A stretch of DNA of 6,155 nt from a virus. Lineage: Duplodnaviria; Heunggongvirae; Uroviricota; Caudoviricetes. A model generated the notes under the pieces. The model was given only the letters and a program-made list of their open reading frames with translations, had not been told where the DNA came from and made no database searches. The position numbers were made by a program, and so were the translations under genes. How positions within the stretch are numbered: the stretch's first letter is position 1; every line of letters starts with the position of its first letter. This document shows positions 1-6,155 of the stretch, piece by piece. The DNA is taken from IMG/VR virus record IMGVR_UViG_2541047432_000011. One strand, written 5' to 3'.

Positions 1-503
1 GCCAGACATTCGGCACCGGACATCCAGGTTTCATCCGCCAGCATGGCGGCAATTTCATCGGTGGTTTTTCCGGTTTTCTGCGCATAGGCTGGCAACAGTA
101 CCGATTCGACTTTATCCAGCAAATCGGCATAACTGCGCATATCCTCAGCATCCCCGCCACTGAATCCCCATGGCTTATGGATCATCATGAAGGCATTTTC
201 CGGCATAATGACCGTATCACCGGCCATCGCAATCACAGATGCCATCGAGGCGGCAACGCCATCCACATACACGGTAATGGTCGCCCCCTGATTTTTCAGG
301 GCATTAAAAATGGCGATGCCTTCAAAGACATCGCCACCCGGTGAATTGATATGGAGATTAATGTGGGTGATATCACCCAGTGCATTCAGTTCGCTGACAA
401 ACTGCTTCGCGGTAACTCCCCAGAAACCAATCTCGTCATAAATATAAATATCCGCGTCACCCGGCCCCCCAGCTTGCATCCTGAACCAGGATTTATTCTT
501 CAT
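1..503 (-). CDS. Prohead (head maturation) protease, ClpP/S14-like; partial, 3' end beyond window start, 167 N-terminal codons present
   Basis: My reverse-complement translation from ATG at 503..501 gives MKNKSWFRMQAGGPGDADIYIYDEIGFWGVTAKQFVSELNALGDITHINLHINSPGGDVFEGIAIFNALKNQGATITVYVDGVAASMASVIAMAGDTVIMPENAFMMIHKPWGFSGGDAEDMRSYADLLDKVESVLLPAYAQKTGKTTDEIAAMLADETWMSGAECL, open to the window edge. It carries ClpP-like motifs INSPGG, AASM (candidate catalytic Ser) and MIHKP (candidate catalytic His). It lies directly downstream of the portal, as lambda C does after B. An alternative start is the ATG at 479..477; the 503 start overlaps the portal stop by 11 nt. It is absent from the ORF track because it runs off the window. 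Confidence 0.8.
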   Translation of the reverse strand, partial: MKNKSWFRMQAGGPGDADIYIYDEIGFWGVTAKQFVSELNALGDITHINLHINSPGGDVFEGIAIFNALKNQGATITVYVDGVAASMASVIAMAGDTVIMPENAFMMIHKPWGFSGGDAEDMRSYADLLDKVESVLLPAYAQKTGKTTDEIAAMLADETWMSGAECL

Positions 504-1995
504 GCTGGCTTTCGGTGTCGCGCTGATACTGTCGTTCAGTTCCGGCACTGTTGCCTCCTTTGTCGTTGACGGGGTCAGTATCAAAGACCAGCCCCAGTCT
601 GCTGTTTTCATCAATTTCAGCCTTGCGGCGACGTTTGACCTCATCCGGATTGCGCCCACCGGCACGCACCCAGTCAGATTCTGTCGCTGCACCACCCCGG
701 ATCTGAATTCTCCAGGCTTCAGCTTCCTTAACCGGGTCGATCCACGGCATCACCGGACCGGAATACGTCGCGTTATATAGCGTTTTCATCTCCACATCCG
801 CCGGAATTTTCAGCAGACCTGCCGCAACCACCATATTCAGCCATGTCCGGTACACCGGGCGGGTTACCGCGCCAATAAAACAGTCCTGCAGGATCAGGTA
901 ACCATCCGTGGACTCGACCAGCTCCTGCCGCTGGGCGCTGTAGGTGCCGTTATAGTTACGCGCCGCACTGGAAAAACTCAGACGACTGCCTGCTGCCACT
1001 GCACGCAACTGGCCGTTGCGGAAAGTTTCAAGGTTGGGATTGGGACGGTCAGATTTGACCATGCCGATATCCTCGCCCTTGCGCAAATCGTCATAAATAA
1101 TACCCGGGGTGATATGGACTTCCCGCTCGGTCTCTTTGATCCCCGGATCTTCATAGTCCTGTCCGTCACCTTTACGGATATACAGTCCCAGCGCCGCAGC
1201 AATACGCGCCGCTGTCAGTTCCGCATCCTCATACTCCTTAAGGGCACTGATCCGCATCAGCACCCCCGATAACATGGATGAGCCTCGCGTCTGATGCAGA
1301 CGACGAGTGAACTTCAGGTGGATCATTTTTCCGGCAGCGATTTCTTTCGTATCACTCTGCCGGCCGCTGACCGGATAATTTTTATAAACCAGATATTTTT
1401 TCGGTCTTCCCCACTCATCAAGAAAAACCCCCTGATTCAGTCCGGCGGATTCATCAGTGCGCATGGGAACAAAATCCGGCTCCATCGCCTCAAGCCAGAA
1501 TGGCACTCCCGCCGTCCGTTCCAGACCGTTTCCCGCACCACTGACCATCTGCGCAAACACTTCACCATCCCGCAGCCAGGTCCGCAGCAGTAAACGTTCA
1601 AGCACAGGACGGGTATACTGCCCTGTCACATCCGGACTCACGGACCATTCAGCCCACAAACGGCGGATATCCGCAGCCAGCTCAGCCGCCATTTCCCCGT
1701 TTTTTCGTAATGGCTGAGGCTCCACAATAATTCCCCTGGCACCAATCACCCGCTCTTCCAGCTTGTCAAACACACCAATCACCAGGTCATGATTGATATC
1801 CAGAAAACGGGCCTGCTCCCGCAGGGAAACCGCACCGTATTTACTGAGCTGATCAGCAGAGCGATTTTCCCGCCGGGCTTTATGTGTCCGGGTCGGTTTC
1901 ACCGCCTCATAGGCCATGATTAACGCCCTTGAACGCAGTCTGGCTGCTTTCCACCCGGGGGAAAACACGCCGATCACATCATCAATAATTGCCAT
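493..1995 (-). CDS. Phage portal protein, lambda gpB family
   Basis: 500-aa ORF from the track. Its position between gpW-like and protease genes matches lambda W-B-C. The segment LSFSSAARNYNGTYSAQR resembles lambda gpB VSYEQLSRNYAQMSYSTAR, and SGPVMPWIDPVKEAEAWRIQIRGG resembles lambda IGSGRMAIDGLKEVQEAVMLIEAG (lambda sequence from memory). The start ATG 1995..1993 overlaps the gpW stop TAA by 1 nt (TAATG). Confidence 0.85.
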   Translation of the reverse strand: MAIIDDVIGVFSPGWKAARLRSRALIMAYEAVKPTRTHKARRENRSADQLSKYGAVSLREQARFLDINHDLVIGVFDKLEERVIGARGIIVEPQPLRKNGEMAAELAADIRRLWAEWSVSPDVTGQYTRPVLERLLLRTWLRDGEVFAQMVSGAGNGLERTAGVPFWLEAMEPDFVPMRTDESAGLNQGVFLDEWGRPKKYLVYKNYPVSGRQSDTKEIAAGKMIHLKFTRRLHQTRGSSMLSGVLMRISALKEYEDAELTAARIAAALGLYIRKGDGQDYEDPGIKETEREVHITPGIIYDDLRKGEDIGMVKSDRPNPNLETFRNGQLRAVAAGSRLSFSSAARNYNGTYSAQRQELVESTDGYLILQDCFIGAVTRPVYRTWLNMVVAAGLLKIPADVEMKTLYNATYSGPVMPWIDPVKEAEAWRIQIRGGAATESDWVRAGGRNPDEVKRRRKAEIDENSRLGLVFDTDPVNDKGGNSAGTERQYQRDTESQHEE

Positions 1996-2231
1996 TAAAA
2001 CCTCGCCAGTTTAAATCCCGGTTTTCCCCGCCTGCGGCTCACCATCGCGGCAAGCCTGCGTTCCCACTCCTGACGTCCGGCGCGGATCTGAGAAAGGCTT
2101 TCCAGCGTCAGTTGCTGCCCGTTGAAGATGACAGACTTTCCCTCCAGTACGGCCATTTCCGCTTCACGGTACCGCTGTATCATTTCTCTGGCTTCTTCTG
2201 TGCTCACAACCAGCCTCCTGATGTTATCCAT
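1995..2231 (-). CDS. Head-tail joining / head completion protein, lambda gpW-like
   Basis: 78-aa ORF ending in the basic tail SRRRGKPGFKLARF, like the lambda gpW C-terminus QRRRGPAGFYV (from memory). It sits between large terminase and portal as in lambda. The true start is probably the internal GTG at 2207..2205, giving 70 aa: it is preceded by a perfect AGGAGG (2219..2214) with a 6-nt spacer and overlaps the TerL stop as GTGA. The ATG at 2231 would overlap TerL by 28 nt behind a weak SD. Confidence 0.75.
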   Translation of the reverse strand: MDNIRRLVVSTEEAREMIQRYREAEMAVLEGKSVIFNGQQLTLESLSQIRAGRQEWERRLAAMVSRRRGKPGFKLARF

Positions 2232-4327
2232 GGATTATCTTCCGCACGCTCCGTCCGCAGTTTTTTCTTCCGGCGACGGCGTTTTTCTGCCCCGGCCGTC
2301 AGTTCCGGGGATACCGTTTCACCAGAACGCTCCTGCGGGAAGACGAGCCACGTTTCCCGCTGTGCCCAGTCCGGTGCGGAGGGCCAGCGGATCTTTTCGT
2401 AACCATGCAGAACGGCAAGCGCATCCGCATAAACCAGCAGGTCAAACGCTTCGTTAGCGCCCCTGCCCGGTTTTCGCCATTTTCCGTCACTGCCGCGCTC
2501 TTCATAGGTCAGCTCATCGTAAAACCACCGCCCCAGCCAGTCGGGAAAGTGGATATAGTTCGGCCCTGGTGTGTCACGCCACAGGGCATTATTTACACGA
2601 TCCTTAAACGCATCCGTCTGAACCAGCCACAGCGCGACATCGCCACTGGCTCTGGCACGGCGGGCACTTCTGCCGGTATTATCCGGGAAGGTTCGGTTAA
2701 TCAGCCTGTCACGGCGAAGTCCATCCCCCTTGAACAGAAACACCCTGTTGCCCAGTCCGTCACTCCGGCAACGACGCCAGAAACGATAGGCGTTATCTGT
2801 CACCCCGGCTTCCCCTCCCGTATCCACCGCCATGGCCATCAGACGCATGCGCACATCCGGATCAGAAGCCAGCGGCCATGTTTTATGGAACACATCCGTC
2901 AGCAACAAATCCCAGTCCTCCGGATATGCCGCCGGATCAACCGGCAGACTTTCACCGTTGGGACTGCAGCGCAGTGAATGCCGGATGTTGTAGCGATCAA
3001 CAATCCAGCGTTCCCCCTGCTCTCCGTATCCGGTGATCTGCACAACAAAACGGCGATTTTTACCGCCCTGTACGTCAACCGTTGCCTCAATAAAACGCAC
3101 ACCATCCGGCACAGATCGCCGGGGAAACGGCTCGGCACGCTGTTCAAGCAGTTCACTTTTACGCTGTTCCGTGGCTGAACGGGGCAGATAGGGTCGTCCG
3201 ATATCGGTGTTCACCACCGCTTTCAGGGTCTCTTCACTGCCGGTTCGCTCATACTCTTCTTCTGCCGCCAGCAGTTTAAAAATCAGTTGTTCCCAGGTCT
3301 GAAACGCCGCAGCTGGCCCCTCCATCCAAAATGACGCAATCCGGGAGTTTCGTGGCGTTCCGGTGATACTGCCGTCCGCCGCCGCCCGTTCACCTTCACG
3401 AAGCCAGATCCCCTGGTTATTCAGTTCGCGTTTCTGCTCAGGGGCAATCAGCCCGCGACAATGCGGACACATCAGACGGGCAGCCTGACCGGCAGCCACA
3501 AAATCCGGGTTATTCCGGTATCCGGTCATGTTATCCATCACCGGCTGAAAATATTCCCCGCAGTGCGGACACGGCCAGTACCACCGGCGGCGGTCTCCCC
3601 GGTTATACAGTGACAGGATCCCCGTTGTTGGCGGTGCCTCATGTGCGCCACCACAACGCCATTTGGTATCGGTGATATCCCGCCCCGGTGAACTCTCGAC
3701 CAGGGTCATCCCCGAGGACATAAAGGTGGTGGTACGCTTTGAGGCCAGCGTGAAGGCATCCCCTTCCCCGTCCACATTTTCAGGGAAACGGTCATAATCC
3801 GTCAGCGCCACACGACGGTAATCCGAAGAGGAAAAGACGGTGATCGACGGCCAGCCAATCTTCAGGAAGGAGCCGTCAAGAAACATTTTATCGTGGACGT
3901 TGTTGTCATTACGGGAAGGACTGAGGCGCTTGCTGACCTCCGGACTGTGGCGAAACGTCCTGGAAAGACGCGTTCTGGAATGCTCACGCGCCTTCGTCTC
4001 AGTCATCTGCACCACCAGCATATCCGCCGGATCACAGATGATGCCGTACACAATCCAGCCATCAATCAGCCCTTCGGTTTTCCCGGTTCGCGCAGGTCCC
4101 ACAAACACCACCGCGTCATATTCACGGGCTGATAATGTATTAATGGGGTCAATCATATAGGGCGTCAGCGATGACTCCCACGGACCGGAAGTATTGGCTC
4201 CCCGTGGAACCCGCATATAACGCCTGATGGCTTCCGCTACTGGTAACCGGCTGGGTGGGCGAAACAGCGAGGCCACTTCGCGCCAGATATCGGATGCGCG
4301 GCTATGGCTCTCGTTCACCTGATTCAC
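2204..4327 (-). CDS. Terminase large subunit, lambda GpA family (ATPase plus cos endonuclease)
   Basis: 707-aa ORF. Walker A-like GPARTGKT is encoded at 4099..4076, which I verified codon by codon. N-terminal SLFRP and the CPHCGEY motif match lambda gpA SLFRP and CPHCGEE (from memory). The start is GTG at 4327..4325, overlapping the TerS stop (ATGTGA). It lies directly downstream of the Nu1-like gene. Confidence 0.9.
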   Translation of the reverse strand: MNQVNESHSRASDIWREVASLFRPPSRLPVAEAIRRYMRVPRGANTSGPWESSLTPYMIDPINTLSAREYDAVVFVGPARTGKTEGLIDGWIVYGIICDPADMLVVQMTETKAREHSRTRLSRTFRHSPEVSKRLSPSRNDNNVHDKMFLDGSFLKIGWPSITVFSSSDYRRVALTDYDRFPENVDGEGDAFTLASKRTTTFMSSGMTLVESSPGRDITDTKWRCGGAHEAPPTTGILSLYNRGDRRRWYWPCPHCGEYFQPVMDNMTGYRNNPDFVAAGQAARLMCPHCRGLIAPEQKRELNNQGIWLREGERAAADGSITGTPRNSRIASFWMEGPAAAFQTWEQLIFKLLAAEEEYERTGSEETLKAVVNTDIGRPYLPRSATEQRKSELLEQRAEPFPRRSVPDGVRFIEATVDVQGGKNRRFVVQITGYGEQGERWIVDRYNIRHSLRCSPNGESLPVDPAAYPEDWDLLLTDVFHKTWPLASDPDVRMRLMAMAVDTGGEAGVTDNAYRFWRRCRSDGLGNRVFLFKGDGLRRDRLINRTFPDNTGRSARRARASGDVALWLVQTDAFKDRVNNALWRDTPGPNYIHFPDWLGRWFYDELTYEERGSDGKWRKPGRGANEAFDLLVYADALAVLHGYEKIRWPSAPDWAQRETWLVFPQERSGETVSPELTAGAEKRRRRKKKLRTERAEDNPWITSGGWL

Positions 4328-4800
4328 ATATCGGCCTCATCACAACAGTCAATGACTGCCTTTTCCAGTGTGTCGCGGATCTCATCAACCACAATCTGTA
4401 CTTCATTCAGTTGTGATGCAGTCCACCCCCTGTCCCTCTCCAGCCGGTCAGGCCAGGTTTCCAGTACCTGAACTATCGCTTTCACCACGACAGAAAAGGA
4501 CCGCCTGACATCACTGACTGGCACAAGCTGAACAGTTTCATGCTGAAATTTAAGACGCTCGCGCTCGGACTGATACCATGCCTTACGAGCGTGAGGATCC
4601 ATATCCTCATCTTCGGAAGATGGTGGTTTTTCCAGCAACGAAGTTATCAAATCCGTCAGGAGATACAGTTTTTTCTTTTCATTACTGCCTGGTGCAAGAG
4701 GAACATCCGCCATTCTGGCGGCAACAGTCTGCCGGTGCAGACCTGAAAGGGCTGCCAGTTGATTAATATTTAACTTCATATTTTTCAGCTCGCCGTCCAT
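4324..4800 (-). CDS. Terminase small subunit, Nu1-like (N-terminal HTH DNA-binding domain)
   Basis: 158-aa ORF. MKLNINQLAALSGLHRQTVAARMADVP aligns with lambda Nu1 MEVNKKQLADIFGASIRTIQNWQEQGMPV (from memory). It is the first gene after the cos region, and its stop overlaps the TerL start. The ATG at 4800 has GGAGGG 7 nt upstream; a second possible start is the ATG at 4779, which would align better with the lambda Nu1 N-terminus. Confidence 0.8.
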   Translation of the reverse strand: MDGELKNMKLNINQLAALSGLHRQTVAARMADVPLAPGSNEKKKLYLLTDLITSLLEKPPSSEDEDMDPHARKAWYQSERERLKFQHETVQLVPVSDVRRSFSVVVKAIVQVLETWPDRLERDRGWTASQLNEVQIVVDEIRDTLEKAVIDCCDEADM

Positions 4801-4985
4801 TTACATCCCTCCACATAAACCGCAGAACAGAAGTGACTCTGTTTTTTTGTAAAGAAATGCCGCCATATAAAGATGTCGAACAAAAAACAACCACAATCAT
4901 CATCTTTTTAATACTAACAGCATTAAAAACAACAAGTTACCATCATGATGATGATGACGATAAAATCACAAAAATGCGCCTTTTT
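4801..4985 (-). other. cosB-like region: AT-rich, A-tract-rich terminase-binding and bending segment between cosN and the small terminase start
   Basis: About 185 bp of non-coding AT-rich DNA immediately upstream of the TerS start, with multiple A/T tracts. The minus-strand reading CGTCATCATCATCATGATGGTAACTTGTTGTTTTTAATGC parallels lambda cosB CGTTCTTCTTCGTCATAACTTAATGTTTTTATTTAAAATACC (from memory). I could not assign individual R elements or an IHF site. Confidence 0.55.
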
Positions 4986-5004
4986 CCGCGCCCGCCCGCC
5001 CCGT
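4986..5004 (-). other. Candidate cosN (terminase nicking site / cohesive-end core)
   Basis: Minus-strand reading of 5004..4986 is ACGGGGCGGGCGGGCGCGG. This compares with the lambda cos junction ACGGGGCGGCGACCTCGCGGG (from memory): identical ACGGGGCGG on one side and CGCGG on the other, with a different central segment. It lies roughly 185-200 bp upstream of the TerS start, as in lambda. Exact nick positions cannot be derived from sequence. Confidence 0.5.
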
Positions 5005-5035
5005 GTTCAGGCCCACCCCACCAGGAGGACCCGCA

Positions 5036-5056
5036 AAATGATAATGGTTATCATTT
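5036..5056. repeat. Perfect 9-bp inverted repeat AAATGATAA-TGG-TTATCATTT, function unknown
   Basis: Read directly: 5036-5044 aaatgataa, a 3-nt spacer tgg, and 5048-5056 ttatcattt, the exact reverse complement. It lies about 30 bp from the cosN-like core on the side away from the terminase. Confidence 0.9.
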
Positions 5057-5260
5057 GCAACAAAATCCAGTTTCTTCCACCATCGCACCGGACTGGCGAC
5101 TATGAGGGGACAACGCCGCGCTCCGTTAACGCGGTAAACCCCGGTGTGTATCGTTTTTGATTATCCCCGCACACTCGCGCAGAGGATTCTCCCGGTCGGG
5201 CTGCGGTCTCTGTTAATGCAGGAATACGGCGACAATACCGCGCATGAATAATAAGGTCGC

Positions 5261-5485
5261 TCAACACACTGGCTGTAATGCAGCGGATACCATGCGGCAT
5301 TTAGCGGCATTCATCGTACACTCAACGGTTAGCTCTTCATTCGTGGCATTCACCTGAAAGGTCCTGGAGTGTAATTGCGTACATTTACCACTGAACGAAC
5401 CTTCAACAAGAACACGACCACGCTGCAAAATACGGAACGGAATTGTTCCCTGAAAAGGCTTTACGGTTACCAATAATTTCTTCAT
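5261..5485 (-). CDS. Hypothetical small protein, 74 aa, four Cys, function unknown; candidate moron between lysis cassette and cos
   Basis: ATG at 5485..5483 is preceded by GGAG with a 5-nt spacer; the track's longer form starts at TTG 5503. The product is MKKLLVTVKPFQGTIPFRILQRGRVLVEGSFSGKCTQLHSRTFQVNATNEELTVECTMNAAKCRMVSAALQPVC. It starts 20-odd nt after the Rz stop on the same strand. I see no signal peptide, no TM segment, and no family I recognise. Confidence 0.5.
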   Translation of the reverse strand: MKKLLVTVKPFQGTIPFRILQRGRVLVEGSFSGKCTQLHSRTFQVNATNEELTVECTMNAAKCRMVSAALQPVC

Positions 5486-5508
5486 GCATTCTCCGAATAA
5501 CAAAAATA

Positions 5509-5976
5509 CTAGTTAATACACTGAGTGCGGATATATTCCTGAAGCATTCTCAATGCTGCCTGGTCGCTGATGATTCCGTCTCTGATACCGAGAACGTTTC
5601 GTCCAGCAACCGGAGAGAGTTCGACGGCGGCATCATTGCCCACGCCGGAGGTGCCGGTGGCTTCACGCACGGTACCGGGGCAGGTGGCGTTGATCCGCAG
5701 GCGCTTACGACCAGCGGCAACATCAGCACGCAGAGTTTCATTTTCAGCTCTCGCATCGGCTAATTCCCTCGAGTATTTTGCATCGAGCGCAGCAACATCA
5801 CGCTGGCGCACCTGCATGTCAGTAATGGTGGCATTCGCCTGTTCCAGCTCTCTGGCTTTTTTATCGCGCTGCGCTTTGTAGGTGAGCGCGTTGTCACGGT
5901 AATGGTTTGTTGCCAGCCACAGCGCACCACAGCCAACCGCCATGACAATAATCACCACACACAGAACACGGTTCAT
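5509..5976 (-). CDS. Rz: Rz i-spanin (inner-membrane spanin subunit)
   Basis: 155 aa with an N-terminal TM segment ([19 protein letters not shown]) followed by [45 protein letters not shown]. This is near-identical in pattern to lambda Rz [45 protein letters not shown] (from memory). Confidence 0.92.
5550..5756 (-). CDS. Rz1: Rz1 o-spanin (outer-membrane lipoprotein), embedded out of frame in Rz
   Basis: [22 protein letters not shown] aligns with lambda Rz1 MLKLKMMLCVMMLPLVVVGCTS (from memory). It has a lipobox-like VSAC followed by a proline-rich stretch [21 protein letters not shown], and lies entirely inside the Rz reading frame in a different frame. Confidence 0.85.
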
Positions 5977-5983
5977 CTCTCTT

Positions 5984-6155
5984 TCACCCCACCAGTCCCG
6001 ATAACGTCAGGACTCGCCAGGCGGTGGAAAAGAAAATGGCAACCAGCATGACTAAAAATGAAATGCCGACAAGTACACAGAGGCTCTTCACCAGCGTTAT
6101 GAGTTTATCTGATATCATTAGCCACCCCATCAATCCGCCTTTGTTATTTTCCCTT
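5984..6155 (-). CDS. Small hydrophobic ORF immediately upstream of Rz; 5' end uncertain or beyond window
   Basis: The frame is open from the window edge to TGA at 5986..5984 and reads ...[56 protein letters not shown]. Candidate in-window starts are ATG 6130 (48 aa) and ATG 6118 (44 aa, with GGTGG 4 nt upstream). It contains one TM-like hydrophobic stretch of about 28 aa. The stop lies 7 nt before the Rz ATG. It is below the ORF-track size cutoff. Confidence 0.4.

What the first reader, a model, noticed from the sequence alone, without database searches (positions are those of the whole stretch)
5984..6155. Hydrophobic ORF directly upstream of Rz where lambda has its endolysin
In lambda the gene immediately before Rz is the soluble endolysin R. 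Here the frame ending 7 nt before the Rz start encodes a C-terminal hydrophobic segment of about 28 residues ([29 protein letters not shown]) and stays open to the window edge. Three readings are possible: a 44-48 aa single-pass membrane peptide inserted between endolysin and spanin, the C-terminus of a larger protein with a membrane anchor, or a holin placed next to the spanins in a rearranged cassette. Any of these departs from the lambda S-R-Rz layout.
Basis: partly seen in the sequence, partly recalled or inferred. Interest (0 to 1): 0.5.

Follow-up and report, generated by a model that had tools for sequence, protein, structure and literature searches.

The report
Small membrane-peptide gene upstream of Rz
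This is a real 44-amino-acid single-helix membrane-peptide gene sitting just ahead of the spanin gene Rz in an E. coli lambdoid prophage; the identical gene is in Shiga-toxin phage 933W and a third of complete E. coli genomes and is already catalogued as a hypothetical protein, but nobody has shown what it does.

Summary
On the minus strand, a hydrophobic ORF stops at TGA 5986..5984, 7 nt before the Rz ATG at 5976.

It is not the C-terminus of a larger protein. In a 99.9%-identical phage, the frame closes 3 codons beyond the window edge. The last 26 nt of the window are the 3' end of an Ant-N-domain gene in another frame, whose TGA overlaps the first ATG (TGATG).

The conserved product starts at the second ATG (6118) and is 44 aa. 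It forms one helix and is predicted to lie N-in/C-out.

- All 115 related loci keep the same length, with no stops.
- pN/pS is 0.45 in frame and 0.58-1.17 in the other five frames.
- It matches phrog_4906 (function unknown).
- It is 100% identical to an unannotated ORF in 933W.
- It is ECs_1966 in Sakai and "XECs191" in a 2017 RIBOseq study.
- It is present in 1,749 of 5,426 complete E. coli genomes and was found only in Escherichia.
- It almost always abuts Rz, while its upstream neighbour varies.

The S21-type holin and SAR endolysin lie further upstream, so it is not the cassette's main holin.

Its function is unknown. My best guess is a late-expressed accessory lysis-module membrane peptide, translationally coupled to Rz. 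The sequence is already known, and interest is modest.

The parts
5984..6118 (-). Conserved small ORF, 44 aa plus stop: [44 protein letters not shown]. This is the family-wide core, starting at the second ATG (6118..6116) and stopping at TGA 5986..5984.
   Evidence: All Ant-less contexts have only this ATG, preceded by aaggGG, aagAGG or aagGGAGG. Three loci carry a TAG between ATG1 and ATG2. phrog_4906 matches at E 5e-30. All 115 loci have identical length and no stops, with pN/pS 0.45. AF2 predicts a single helix over residues 2-43 of the 48-aa form, pLDDT 86.7.
6116..6130 (-). Optional N-terminal extension (MGWL + M). ATG1 at 6130..6128 would give a 48-aa product. This stretch also carries the SD-like GGGGTGG (6128..6122) for ATG2.
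   Evidence: RefSeq and GenBank call the 48-aa form (BCI50136.1, WP_000539792.1, ECs_1966). ATG1 exists only where the Ant-N gene lies upstream.
6130..6155 (-). 3' end of a P22_AR_N-domain 'antirepressor' gene (189 aa in relatives), in a different frame. Its stop, TGA 6132..6130, overlaps ATG1 as TGATG.
   Evidence: L001 (99.9% identical) has CDS 4457..5026 ending at this TGA. PF10547 matches at 1.2e-45 and phrog_524 at 8e-113.
6017..6085 (-). Segment encoding the predicted transmembrane helix (S12-W34 of the 44-aa form). The conserved charges D4, K5 and K11 lie on the N-terminal side, and the C-tail is 10 aa.
   Evidence: Alignments A1 and A2 give the invariant residues D, K, L, I, C, V, V, G, I, F, V, L. 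Substitutions inside the segment are all uncharged. The published PredictProtein result for the identical peptide is inner membrane with 1 TM helix.
5977..5983 (-). 7-nt spacer (aagagag) between the small-ORF stop and the Rz start. It holds an SD-like purine run for Rz, a geometry that fits translational coupling.
   Evidence: The same 7-nt junction occurs in 81 loci. An 11-nt junction occurs in 27 loci that carry the second Rz type.
5509..5976 (-). Rz (i-spanin), 155 aa.
   Evidence: PF03245 1.5e-39 and phrog_13 7e-73.
5550..5741 (-). Rz1 (o-spanin lipoprotein) embedded in the +1 frame of Rz. It begins [15 protein letters not shown]..., and the open frame extends up to 5756.
   Evidence: ORF list. 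The same arrangement is annotated in 933W.

Best explanation
The feature is an independent, translated gene for a 44-aa peptide (48 aa if the upstream ATG is used). The peptide is essentially one transmembrane helix. SHOWN: it is a separate ORF with its own SD and ATG. It is conserved in length and hydrophobic character. It is under loose purifying selection and gives ribosome footprints in O157:H7 Sakai. It sits in the late lysis module in the order S21-type pinholin, (DUF1327), SAR lysozyme, [variable insert], this ORF, Rz/Rz1. INFERRED: the conserved D/K/K charges on the N-side and the mostly uncharged 10-aa C-tail suggest it inserts N-in/C-out, the same orientation as the Rz anchor. It is probably transcribed only by Q-antiterminated late transcription, because a terminator-like hairpin follows R and no forward promoter precedes the ORF. 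Its stop lies 7-11 nt before the Rz ATG, so it is probably co-synthesised with Rz by translational coupling. MOST LIKELY FUNCTION (inference): it is an accessory lysis-module membrane peptide. It would tune the timing or efficiency of lysis through helix-helix contacts in the inner membrane with the pinholin, the SAR anchor of the endolysin, or the Rz anchor. The invariant cytoplasmic-leaflet half (SDKLITLxKxLCVxVGISF) would be the contact surface. I put roughly 0.9 on 'real membrane-peptide gene' and roughly 0.4-0.45 on 'lysis accessory'.
For: Separate gene. Start codon and SD. Conservation: 115 of 115 loci have the same length with no stops or indels. pN/pS is 0.45 in frame, 0.85 and 1.04 in the shifted sense frames and 0.58-1.17 in the antisense frames. 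It is 0.37 in the N-terminal half. Single helix. Family: phrog_4906. Translation: XECs191 in LB gave RNA RPKM 30.0, RIBO RPKM 12.6, RCV 0.43 and coverage 0.55, and was classed 'real' with 1 TM helix in the inner membrane (PMC5597208). Position: Rz starts 7 or 11 nt downstream in 108 loci, while the upstream neighbour varies. That neighbour is a P22_AR_N gene, a 231-aa phrog_63 Ant-like gene, or the small ORFs B or C. Every locus with enough upstream sequence has the SAR-type lysozyme at 91% identity or more. A terminator-like hairpin follows R and no forward consensus promoter precedes the ORF in either of two contexts. Precedent: the 64-aa single-TMD protein ORF52 of Salmonella phage BSPM4 binds the holin and delays lysis (PMC11657625).
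Against: There are no functional data for this protein. The selection signal is only moderate, and it rests on a few deep haplotypes that recombine within the ORF. The RIBOseq signal is low, comes from uninduced cells, and may be shared among identical prophage copies. The protein has no similarity to any characterised lysis protein. Phage 21, DLP12 and lambda lyse without such a gene (my own knowledge), so it cannot be essential. Its adjacency to Rz could reflect only the need for an upstream ORF to couple Rz translation. Topology is inferred from charge distribution alone.
Confidence: 0.45

Rival explanations
1. The ORF is a membrane peptide unrelated to lysis. It would be a moron-like passenger, for example a superinfection-exclusion factor, a modulator of a host transporter or protease, or a mild membrane toxin. 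It would sit in the R-Rz gap because that gap tolerates insertions.
For: The R-Rz interval is a mosaic hot-spot. It carries two different Ant-like genes, a 255-aa methyltransferase-like ORF and several unrelated small ORFs. Terminator-like hairpins flank the 5' side of the inserts. Low-level transcripts and footprints are seen in uninduced culture. The family is restricted to Escherichia, like many accessory prophage genes.
Against: No forward consensus promoter was found and there is no terminator of its own; it runs straight into Rz. It has no PADLOC hit. It stays glued to Rz while its upstream partners change.
Confidence: 0.22
2. The ORF is mainly a translational-coupling upstream ORF. Inserts separated Rz from R, so some ORF has to end at the Rz start to deliver ribosomes. 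On this view the peptide itself is largely incidental.
For: Rz is always preceded within 1-11 nt by the stop of an ORF, whatever that ORF is. It is family A here, and family B or D in L115, L116 and Salmonella phage SPN3UB. In lambda, R overlaps Rz (my own knowledge). The near-invariant C-terminal G-L-V-G codons (GGNCTGGTGGGG) may double as an SD for Rz. Constraint on the protein is loose, with pN/pS 0.45 against 0.11-0.16 for S, R and Ant.
Against: Coupling alone does not explain the invariant residues in the N-terminal half or the strictly uncharged substitutions. It also does not explain the exact length conservation in 115 loci. All four unrelated small-ORF families found in this gap encode a TM helix. 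The ORF stays intact in L099-L101, where it is not adjacent to Rz.
Confidence: 0.15
3. The ORF is a second holin or a holin-like membrane-depolarising peptide placed next to the spanins.
For: It is small, very hydrophobic, late-expressed and part of the lysis module.
Against: A bona fide S21-type holin is present upstream (PF04971). The ORF hits no holin family in Pfam or PHROGs. It has only one TMD, no charged C-terminal tail and almost no soluble domain.
Confidence: 0.05
4. The ORF is non-coding: a chance open frame in an intergenic leader of Rz.
For: It is short. It was not annotated in 933W or in many GenBank phage records. The selection signal is only moderate.
Against: The frame is conserved in 115 of 115 loci, across alleles down to about 63% amino-acid identity. 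The sense frame has the lowest pN/pS of the six frames. The SD and ATG are conserved in unrelated upstream contexts. Ribosome footprints have been published. No Rfam family matches.
Confidence: 0.05
5. The frame is the C-terminal membrane anchor of a larger protein, either the endolysin or Ant.
For: The frame is open to the window edge. Rare natural fusions of Ant to the peptide exist, in one viral contig and in P0043.
Against: An in-frame stop lies 3 codons beyond the edge in 100+ relatives, including the 99.9%-identical one. Ant ends in another frame, and the lysozyme ends about 840 nt upstream.
Confidence: 0.01

Closest known systems
ECs_1966 (NP_309993.2) of O157:H7 Sakai prophage Sp10 = 'XECs191' of Huecker et al. 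2017 (PMC5597208); WP_000539792.1; BCI50136.1; the unannotated ORF at 27423..27566 of phage 933W (AF125520)
   Same: The amino-acid sequence is identical. The position is the same, between the Ant-N gene and Rz.
   Different: Nothing differs in the gene itself. The window is a different prophage copy, with the gene on the minus strand and a lambda-type terminase downstream instead of the HK97 type. No function is assigned in any of these records.
phrog_4906 (PHROGs v4, unknown function)
   Same: The match is full-length: residues 1-48 against profile positions 2-49 of 49, E 5.4e-30.
   Different: The family carries no annotation.
ORF52 of Salmonella phage BSPM4 (64 aa, single TMD, antiholin-like; PMC11657625)
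   Same: Both are small single-TMD phage membrane proteins with no homology to known lysis proteins. ORF52 shows that such proteins can bind a holin and delay lysis.
   Different: There is no detectable sequence relationship. ORF52 has its TMD at the N-terminus with a soluble tail, lies outside the lysis cassette and is expressed early. The peptide here is almost entirely TMD, lies inside the cassette and is probably expressed late.
Mu gp25 'releasin' (DUF2730; PMC9239132)
   Same: Both are accessory membrane-tethered factors in a SAR-endolysin lysis system encoded near the spanins (abstract seen).
   Different: gp25 has a functional cytoplasmic domain and a Pfam family. The peptide here has no Pfam hit and only about 11 cytoplasmic residues.
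P2 LysA (my own knowledge, not checked here)
   Same: It is a positional analogue: a membrane protein encoded between the endolysin (K) and the spanin genes (lysB/lysC) that affects lysis timing.
   Different: LysA is larger and polytopic, and no homology was tested or is expected.
Small R-Rz-gap ORF families B (phrog_6632) and C/D (phrog_1115/4493/3246)
   Same: They occupy the same genomic niche and are of similar size, with one C-terminal hydrophobic helix and a stop within 1-11 nt of Rz or of the next small ORF. All are of unknown function and often unannotated.
   Different: They show no sequence similarity to family A beyond composition (p = 0.35-0.85). Family B also occurs in a Salmonella phage.

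Membership tests
phrog_4906 (uncharacterised phage protein family) | Significant full-length match to the family profile | tested here: met
   E 5.4e-30, 104 bits, residues 1-48 against profile positions 2-49 of 49.
Holins (including the S21 pinholin family PF04971) | Match to a holin sequence family | tested here: not met
   No Pfam, PHROG or NCBIfam holin hit. The true S21-type holin lies upstream in relatives.
Holins (including the S21 pinholin family PF04971) | At least one TMD plus a hydrophilic, highly charged C-terminal domain | tested here: not met
   The single TMD is present. The C-tail is only 10 aa and is uncharged in most alleles, with one Arg in this one.
Holins (including the S21 pinholin family PF04971) | Timed lethal permeabilisation of the inner membrane | not testable with these tools
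   This needs expression experiments.
Endolysin or Ant C-terminal anchor | Reading-frame continuity with the upstream enzyme or regulator gene | tested here: not met
   An in-frame stop lies 3 codons beyond the window edge. Ant is in another frame and the lysozyme ends about 840 nt upstream.
Antiholin (functional class) | Binds the holin and delays triggering | not testable with these tools
   No sequence signature defines the class. Similarity to the S21-like holin is not above chance.
Releasin (Mu gp25, DUF2730) | DUF2730 domain with an N-terminal TMD and a cytoplasmic domain | tested here: not met
   No Pfam hit at E <= 0.01. There is no soluble domain.
Spanin components (i-spanin, o-spanin, u-spanin) | A periplasmic coiled-coil domain (i-spanin) or a lipobox with a Pro-rich periplasmic domain (o-spanin) | tested here: not met
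   Only about 10 residues follow the TMD and there is no lipobox. Rz and Rz1 are the next genes. Similarity to the Rz and Rz1 N-termini is not above chance.
Type I toxin-like small hydrophobic peptides | An associated antisense or regulatory RNA, or a known toxin family | tested here: not met
   No Rfam family matched in the window at gathering score or in L001 4100-5300 at E <= 1. No Pfam or NCBIfam hit. An uncatalogued antisense RNA cannot be excluded.
Known anti-phage defence proteins (PADLOC-DB) | Match to a defence-system protein model | tested here: not met
   0 families for the peptide, Ant-N, B and C.

The most novel reading that the evidence does not exclude
The gap between the endolysin gene and Rz in pinholin/SAR-endolysin lambdoid phages may be a dedicated slot for interchangeable, tail-anchored mini-proteins. 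These are family A here, plus the unrelated families B and C/D. Each would be co-translated with the i-spanin and act as a not-yet-described class of lysis regulators. They might work as a spanin-directed brake or chaperone in the inner membrane, or as a trans-acting pinholin modulator. That would set lysis timing and therefore Shiga-toxin release.
Probability: 0.22. Interest if true: 0.65.

Novelty: already known. Interest (0 to 1): 0.33.

Why it matters
Stx release from EHEC depends on phage-mediated lysis, and the lysis cassette of Stx phages is usually described as S-R-Rz/Rz1 only. A conserved and apparently translated membrane peptide sits between Ant and Rz in 933W, in Sakai prophages and in a third of complete E. 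coli genomes. If it modulates lysis, models of lysis timing and toxin release for these phages are incomplete. The experiment is cheap: one small in-frame mutation in a well-established system. If it does nothing, it is a useful cautionary example of a coupling ORF. Practically, many GenBank phage records, including the type record AF125520, still lack this CDS.

Tried and rejected
1. Paralogy or derivation. I suspected a shared S-x-K-L-I motif linking family A with the other small R-Rz ORFs, or an origin from the Rz anchor (shared 'LCV'). Shuffle-calibrated local alignments gave p = 0.25-0.91 against B, C, D, two Rz N-termini, Rz1, the S21-like holin and the SAR domain, so I rejected this.

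2. Window origin. XECs191 lies at Sakai 1,945,984-1,946,130 and the ORF lies at window 5984-6130, so I guessed the window was Sakai 1,940,001-1,946,155. The Sakai record shows the gene on the + strand in Sp10 with an HK97-type terminase downstream, unlike the window. It was a coincidence, and I rejected the guess.

3. Known RNA element. There are no Rfam hits.

4. Defence gene. There are no PADLOC hits.

5. Remote homologues.
- The word-indexed search found 53 proteins, all E. coli or Stx phage.
- An exhaustive profile search of 1.84 billion representatives found 28 hits. Most are fragments or frameshifted copies, and the named full-length divergent ones are Escherichia.
- The species-representative genomes gave only a 328-bp contig labelled Xanthomonas pisi, which looks like contamination.

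6. Literature. Searches by accession and PHROG id found nothing. The main comparative paper on Stx-phage lysis cassettes does not mention the ORF, and other Stx-phage reviews add nothing.

7. Own promoter. No forward sigma-70 consensus site lies between R and the ORF in two contexts. This is a weak test.

Full report
**1. What is in the window**

All the genes lie on the minus strand, in this order:
- the 3' end of an upstream gene (6155..6130)
- a small hydrophobic ORF (6130 or 6118..5984)
- Rz (5976..5509), with Rz1 embedded (about 5741..5550)
- a 74-aa ORF (5485..5261)
- a DUF1441-type small terminase (4800..4324)
- a lambda-gpA-type large terminase (4327..2204)
- a W-like gene (2231..1995)
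- a portal gene (1995..493)

The stop is TGA at 5986..5984. Seven nucleotides (aagagag) follow, and then the Rz ATG at 5976.

**2. What lies beyond the edge**

The last 956 nt of the window match phage PPyecE_EH1910 (LC567835.1) at 99.9% identity over their full length. In that phage the order is:
- an S21-type class II holin (PF04971)
- a DUF1327 gene
- a SAR-type lysozyme (PF00959, with N-terminus MNAKIRYGLSAAVLALIAAGAP...)
- a 270-nt gap
- a 189-aa P22_AR_N/ORF11CD3 'antirepressor'
- a 48-aa hypothetical protein
- rzpD

The antirepressor's TGA overlaps the small ORF's first ATG as TGATG and is in a different frame. In the small ORF's own frame, a TGA lies 3 codons beyond the window edge. 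This holds in that phage and in essentially all relatives. The frame therefore cannot be the tail of a large protein. The endolysin has not been replaced; it sits about 840 nt further upstream.

**3. Is it a gene?**

I assembled 115 loci from phage records, E. coli chromosomes and IMG/VR contigs.

- Every copy has exactly 42 codons from the S of SDKLI to the last codon, with no stop or indel.
- Among 20-21 distinct alleles, pooled pN/pS is 0.45 in frame.
- It is 0.85 and 1.04 in the two shifted sense frames, and 0.83, 0.58 and 1.17 in the antisense frames.
- In the same loci, Rz gives 0.56, Ant 0.16, R 0.12 and S 0.11.

Constraint on the protein is therefore real but loose. It also rests on a few deep haplotypes that recombine inside the ORF, so it should not be over-read.

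The N-terminal half (SDKLITLxKxLCVxVGISF) is the conserved part, with pN/pS 0.37. Invariant residues are D, K, L, I, C, V, V, G, I and F. All substitutions within the hydrophobic stretch are uncharged.

The start-codon evidence is clear. Contexts without the Ant-N gene have a single ATG directly before SDK, preceded by aaggGG, aagAGG or aagGGAGG. In three Ant-type loci a TAG separates the two ATGs. The conserved product therefore starts at the second ATG (window 6118) and is 44 aa. The 48-aa form annotated by GenBank and RefSeq is possible only where Ant lies upstream.

AlphaFold2 with the family alignment gives a single helix over residues 2-43, at pLDDT 86.7.

The conserved charges D4, K5 and K11 are all on the N-terminal side. 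The 10-residue C-tail is uncharged in most alleles. By the positive-inside rule I infer an N-in/C-out orientation.

There is independent experimental support. The identical peptide is 'XECs191' among the novel intergenic genes found by RIBOseq in O157:H7 Sakai. The values are as follows (PMC5597208):

| Condition | RNA RPKM | RIBO RPKM | RCV | Coverage |
|---|---|---|---|---|
| LB, 37 °C | 30.0 | 12.6 | 0.43 | 0.55 |
| BHI control | 26.4 | 1.7 | 0.13 | 0.46 |
| BHI stress | 5.0 | 0.8 | 0.16 | 0.32 |

The study classed it 'real' and predicted an inner-membrane protein with 1 TM helix. The signal is low, comes from uninduced cultures and may be shared among identical prophage copies.

**4. Distribution and neighbours**

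- The protein matches phrog_4906 (unknown function) end to end. It has no Pfam, NCBIfam or PADLOC family.
- It is 100% identical to an unannotated ORF in the ant-Rz gap of phage 933W.
- It is present in 276 phage records.
- It is annotated as hypothetical in RefSeq, as WP_000539792.1 and as ECs_1966 in Sakai Sp10.
- It occurs in 1,749 of 5,426 complete E. coli genomes, with up to 11 copies per genome.
- Word-indexed and exhaustive profile searches find only Escherichia or Shigella sequences.
- Among one-genome-per-species representatives, the only hit is a 328-bp contig labelled Xanthomonas pisi. It is 93% identical to the coliphage gene, so I read it as contamination.

In the neighbour census, Rz starts 7 nt (81 loci) or 11 nt (27 loci, second Rz type) after the stop.

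The upstream neighbour varies:
- the P22_AR_N gene in 96 loci
- a different 231-aa Ant-like gene (phrog_63) plus a short B-type ORF in 9 loci
- only small ORFs of family B or C in 7 loci

In three loci (L099-L101), a D-type small ORF and a 255-aa methyltransferase-like ORF separate it from Rz.

Every locus with enough upstream sequence has the same SAR-type lysozyme at 91% identity or more. A terminator-like hairpin follows R in both context types. No forward sigma-70 consensus precedes the small ORF. That fits expression by Q-antiterminated late transcription, although the scan is a weak test.

**5. Mechanism**

Nothing computable here assigns a function, so the following is inference. The peptide is almost entirely one membrane helix. 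It lies in the late lysis operon and ends within a ribosome's reach of the Rz start. Its conserved face is the cytoplasmic-leaflet half of the helix plus the juxtamembrane SDKLITLxK.

The most economical reading is an accessory lysis-module peptide co-synthesised with the i-spanin. It would act by intramembrane contacts with the pinholin, the SAR anchor or the Rz anchor to tune lysis. BSPM4 ORF52 shows that an unrelated 64-aa single-TMD phage protein can bind a holin and delay lysis (PMC11657625). Mu gp25 shows that SAR-endolysin systems can need extra membrane-tethered factors (PMC9239132; abstract seen).

The rivals are:
- a passenger membrane peptide with a non-lysis role
- an upstream ORF kept mainly to couple Rz translation
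- a second holin
- a chance ORF

The coupling idea has some force. Rz is always preceded within 1-11 nt by the stop of some ORF: family A here, family B or D elsewhere, and R itself in lambda. It does not explain why four unrelated families in this gap all encode a TM helix. It also does not explain the invariant residues.

**6. Comparison with what is known, and novelty**

The gene is already catalogued under several names: phrog_4906, ECs_1966, XECs191 and WP_000539792.1. It is identical in the type Stx2 phage, so it is not a new sequence feature. The departure from lambda's S-R-Rz order has been visible since the 933W genome was published.

What remains open is its function. The main comparative study of Stx-phage lysis cassettes does not mention it, and accession searches found no paper on it.

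It fails the testable membership criteria for holins, spanins, releasin, endolysin anchors, type I toxins and defence proteins (see the membership table).

**7. Verdict**

- Interest is modest. This is a well-conserved, uncharacterised mini-membrane protein in a medically important lysis cassette, with a cheap decisive experiment, but no evidence yet of an unusual mechanism.

Noticed in passing
L115 612..1175; L116 2329..2502; L003 3286..3477; L006 2283..2498; L118 (Salmonella phage SPN3UB) 1501..1659: The R-Rz interval of lambdoid cassettes holds other small ORFs, each with one C-terminal hydrophobic helix. Family B (phrog_6632) reads ...FSKLIREIRVMAEKLSTWKFILIWLVFVIM...IRWW*. Families C/D (phrog_1115/4493/3246) read ...DDISRALAFAIKWVAVGVAVSPMLYGLAKLVIALKS and ...MSAELIRAMAFAIRIVAIAVLVWAIRWW*. 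Their stops fall 1-2 nt before Rz or before the next small ORF. Most are unannotated. Family B sits in the same place in a Salmonella phage that has a different holin. They are unrelated to family A.
   Followed up: partly
One IMG/VR locus (237-aa fused ORF); P0043 (80 aa): Two independent natural variants fuse the Ant-N-domain protein in frame to the membrane peptide, giving a membrane-anchored Ant. This could be a trivial indel between overlapping genes, or a weak Rosetta-stone hint of a functional link.
   Followed up: no
L099-L101, about 3271..4038 (L100 coordinates): A 255-aa ORF with a DPPYW motif, which looks like a Dam-type DNA methyltransferase, is inserted between the small ORF (plus a D-type ORF) and Rz. 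This is the only context where family A is not adjacent to Rz.
   Followed up: no
L001 4296..4314; L003 3299..3331 (outside the window, upstream of 6155): A terminator-like hairpin lies directly after the lysozyme gene in both context types. L003 has a 14-bp stem (AAAACCCCGTTTG...CAAACGGGGTTTT). Rz/Rz1 and the small ORFs therefore lie behind a terminator-like hairpin that late transcription would have to read through.
   Followed up: partly
L002 (O157:H7 PV15-279) 840..2686: In this prophage copy the SAR lysozyme gene is split by an IS1203 insertion, while Ant, the small ORF and Rz remain intact.
   Followed up: no
L008 (NZ_JPLE01000251.1, 328 bp, labelled Xanthomonas pisi DSM 18956): A 328-bp contig in a Xanthomonas assembly is 93% identical at protein level to this coliphage ORF. 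It is almost certainly an E. coli or phage contaminant in that assembly.
   Followed up: no
window 5261..5485 (-): A 74-aa ORF lies just downstream of Rz/Rz1 (RefSeq WP_000735655.1, hypothetical). It matches only the C-terminal third (positions 100-172 of 291) of phrog_2571, so it may be a truncated remnant. It travels with this Rz in several prophages that have different terminases.
   Followed up: no
window 5984..6110 (+ strand, antisense to the small ORF; listed + ORF 5902..6051): One antisense frame has no stop in any of the 20 alleles examined and gives pN/pS 0.58 across 21 alleles. I read this as a side-effect of the hydrophobic sense codons rather than as a gene.
   Followed up: partly
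window 1..6155 compared with L001, L003 and L117: The window is a mosaic. Its small ORF and Rz are 99.9% identical to prophages with HK97-type terminases (L001, Sakai Sp10). Its DUF1441/gpA-type terminase module matches prophages such as ERL04-3476 (L003), which carry a different small-ORF allele. No complete E. coli genome in the collection matches the whole 1,356-nt junction at 99% or more.
   Followed up: partly
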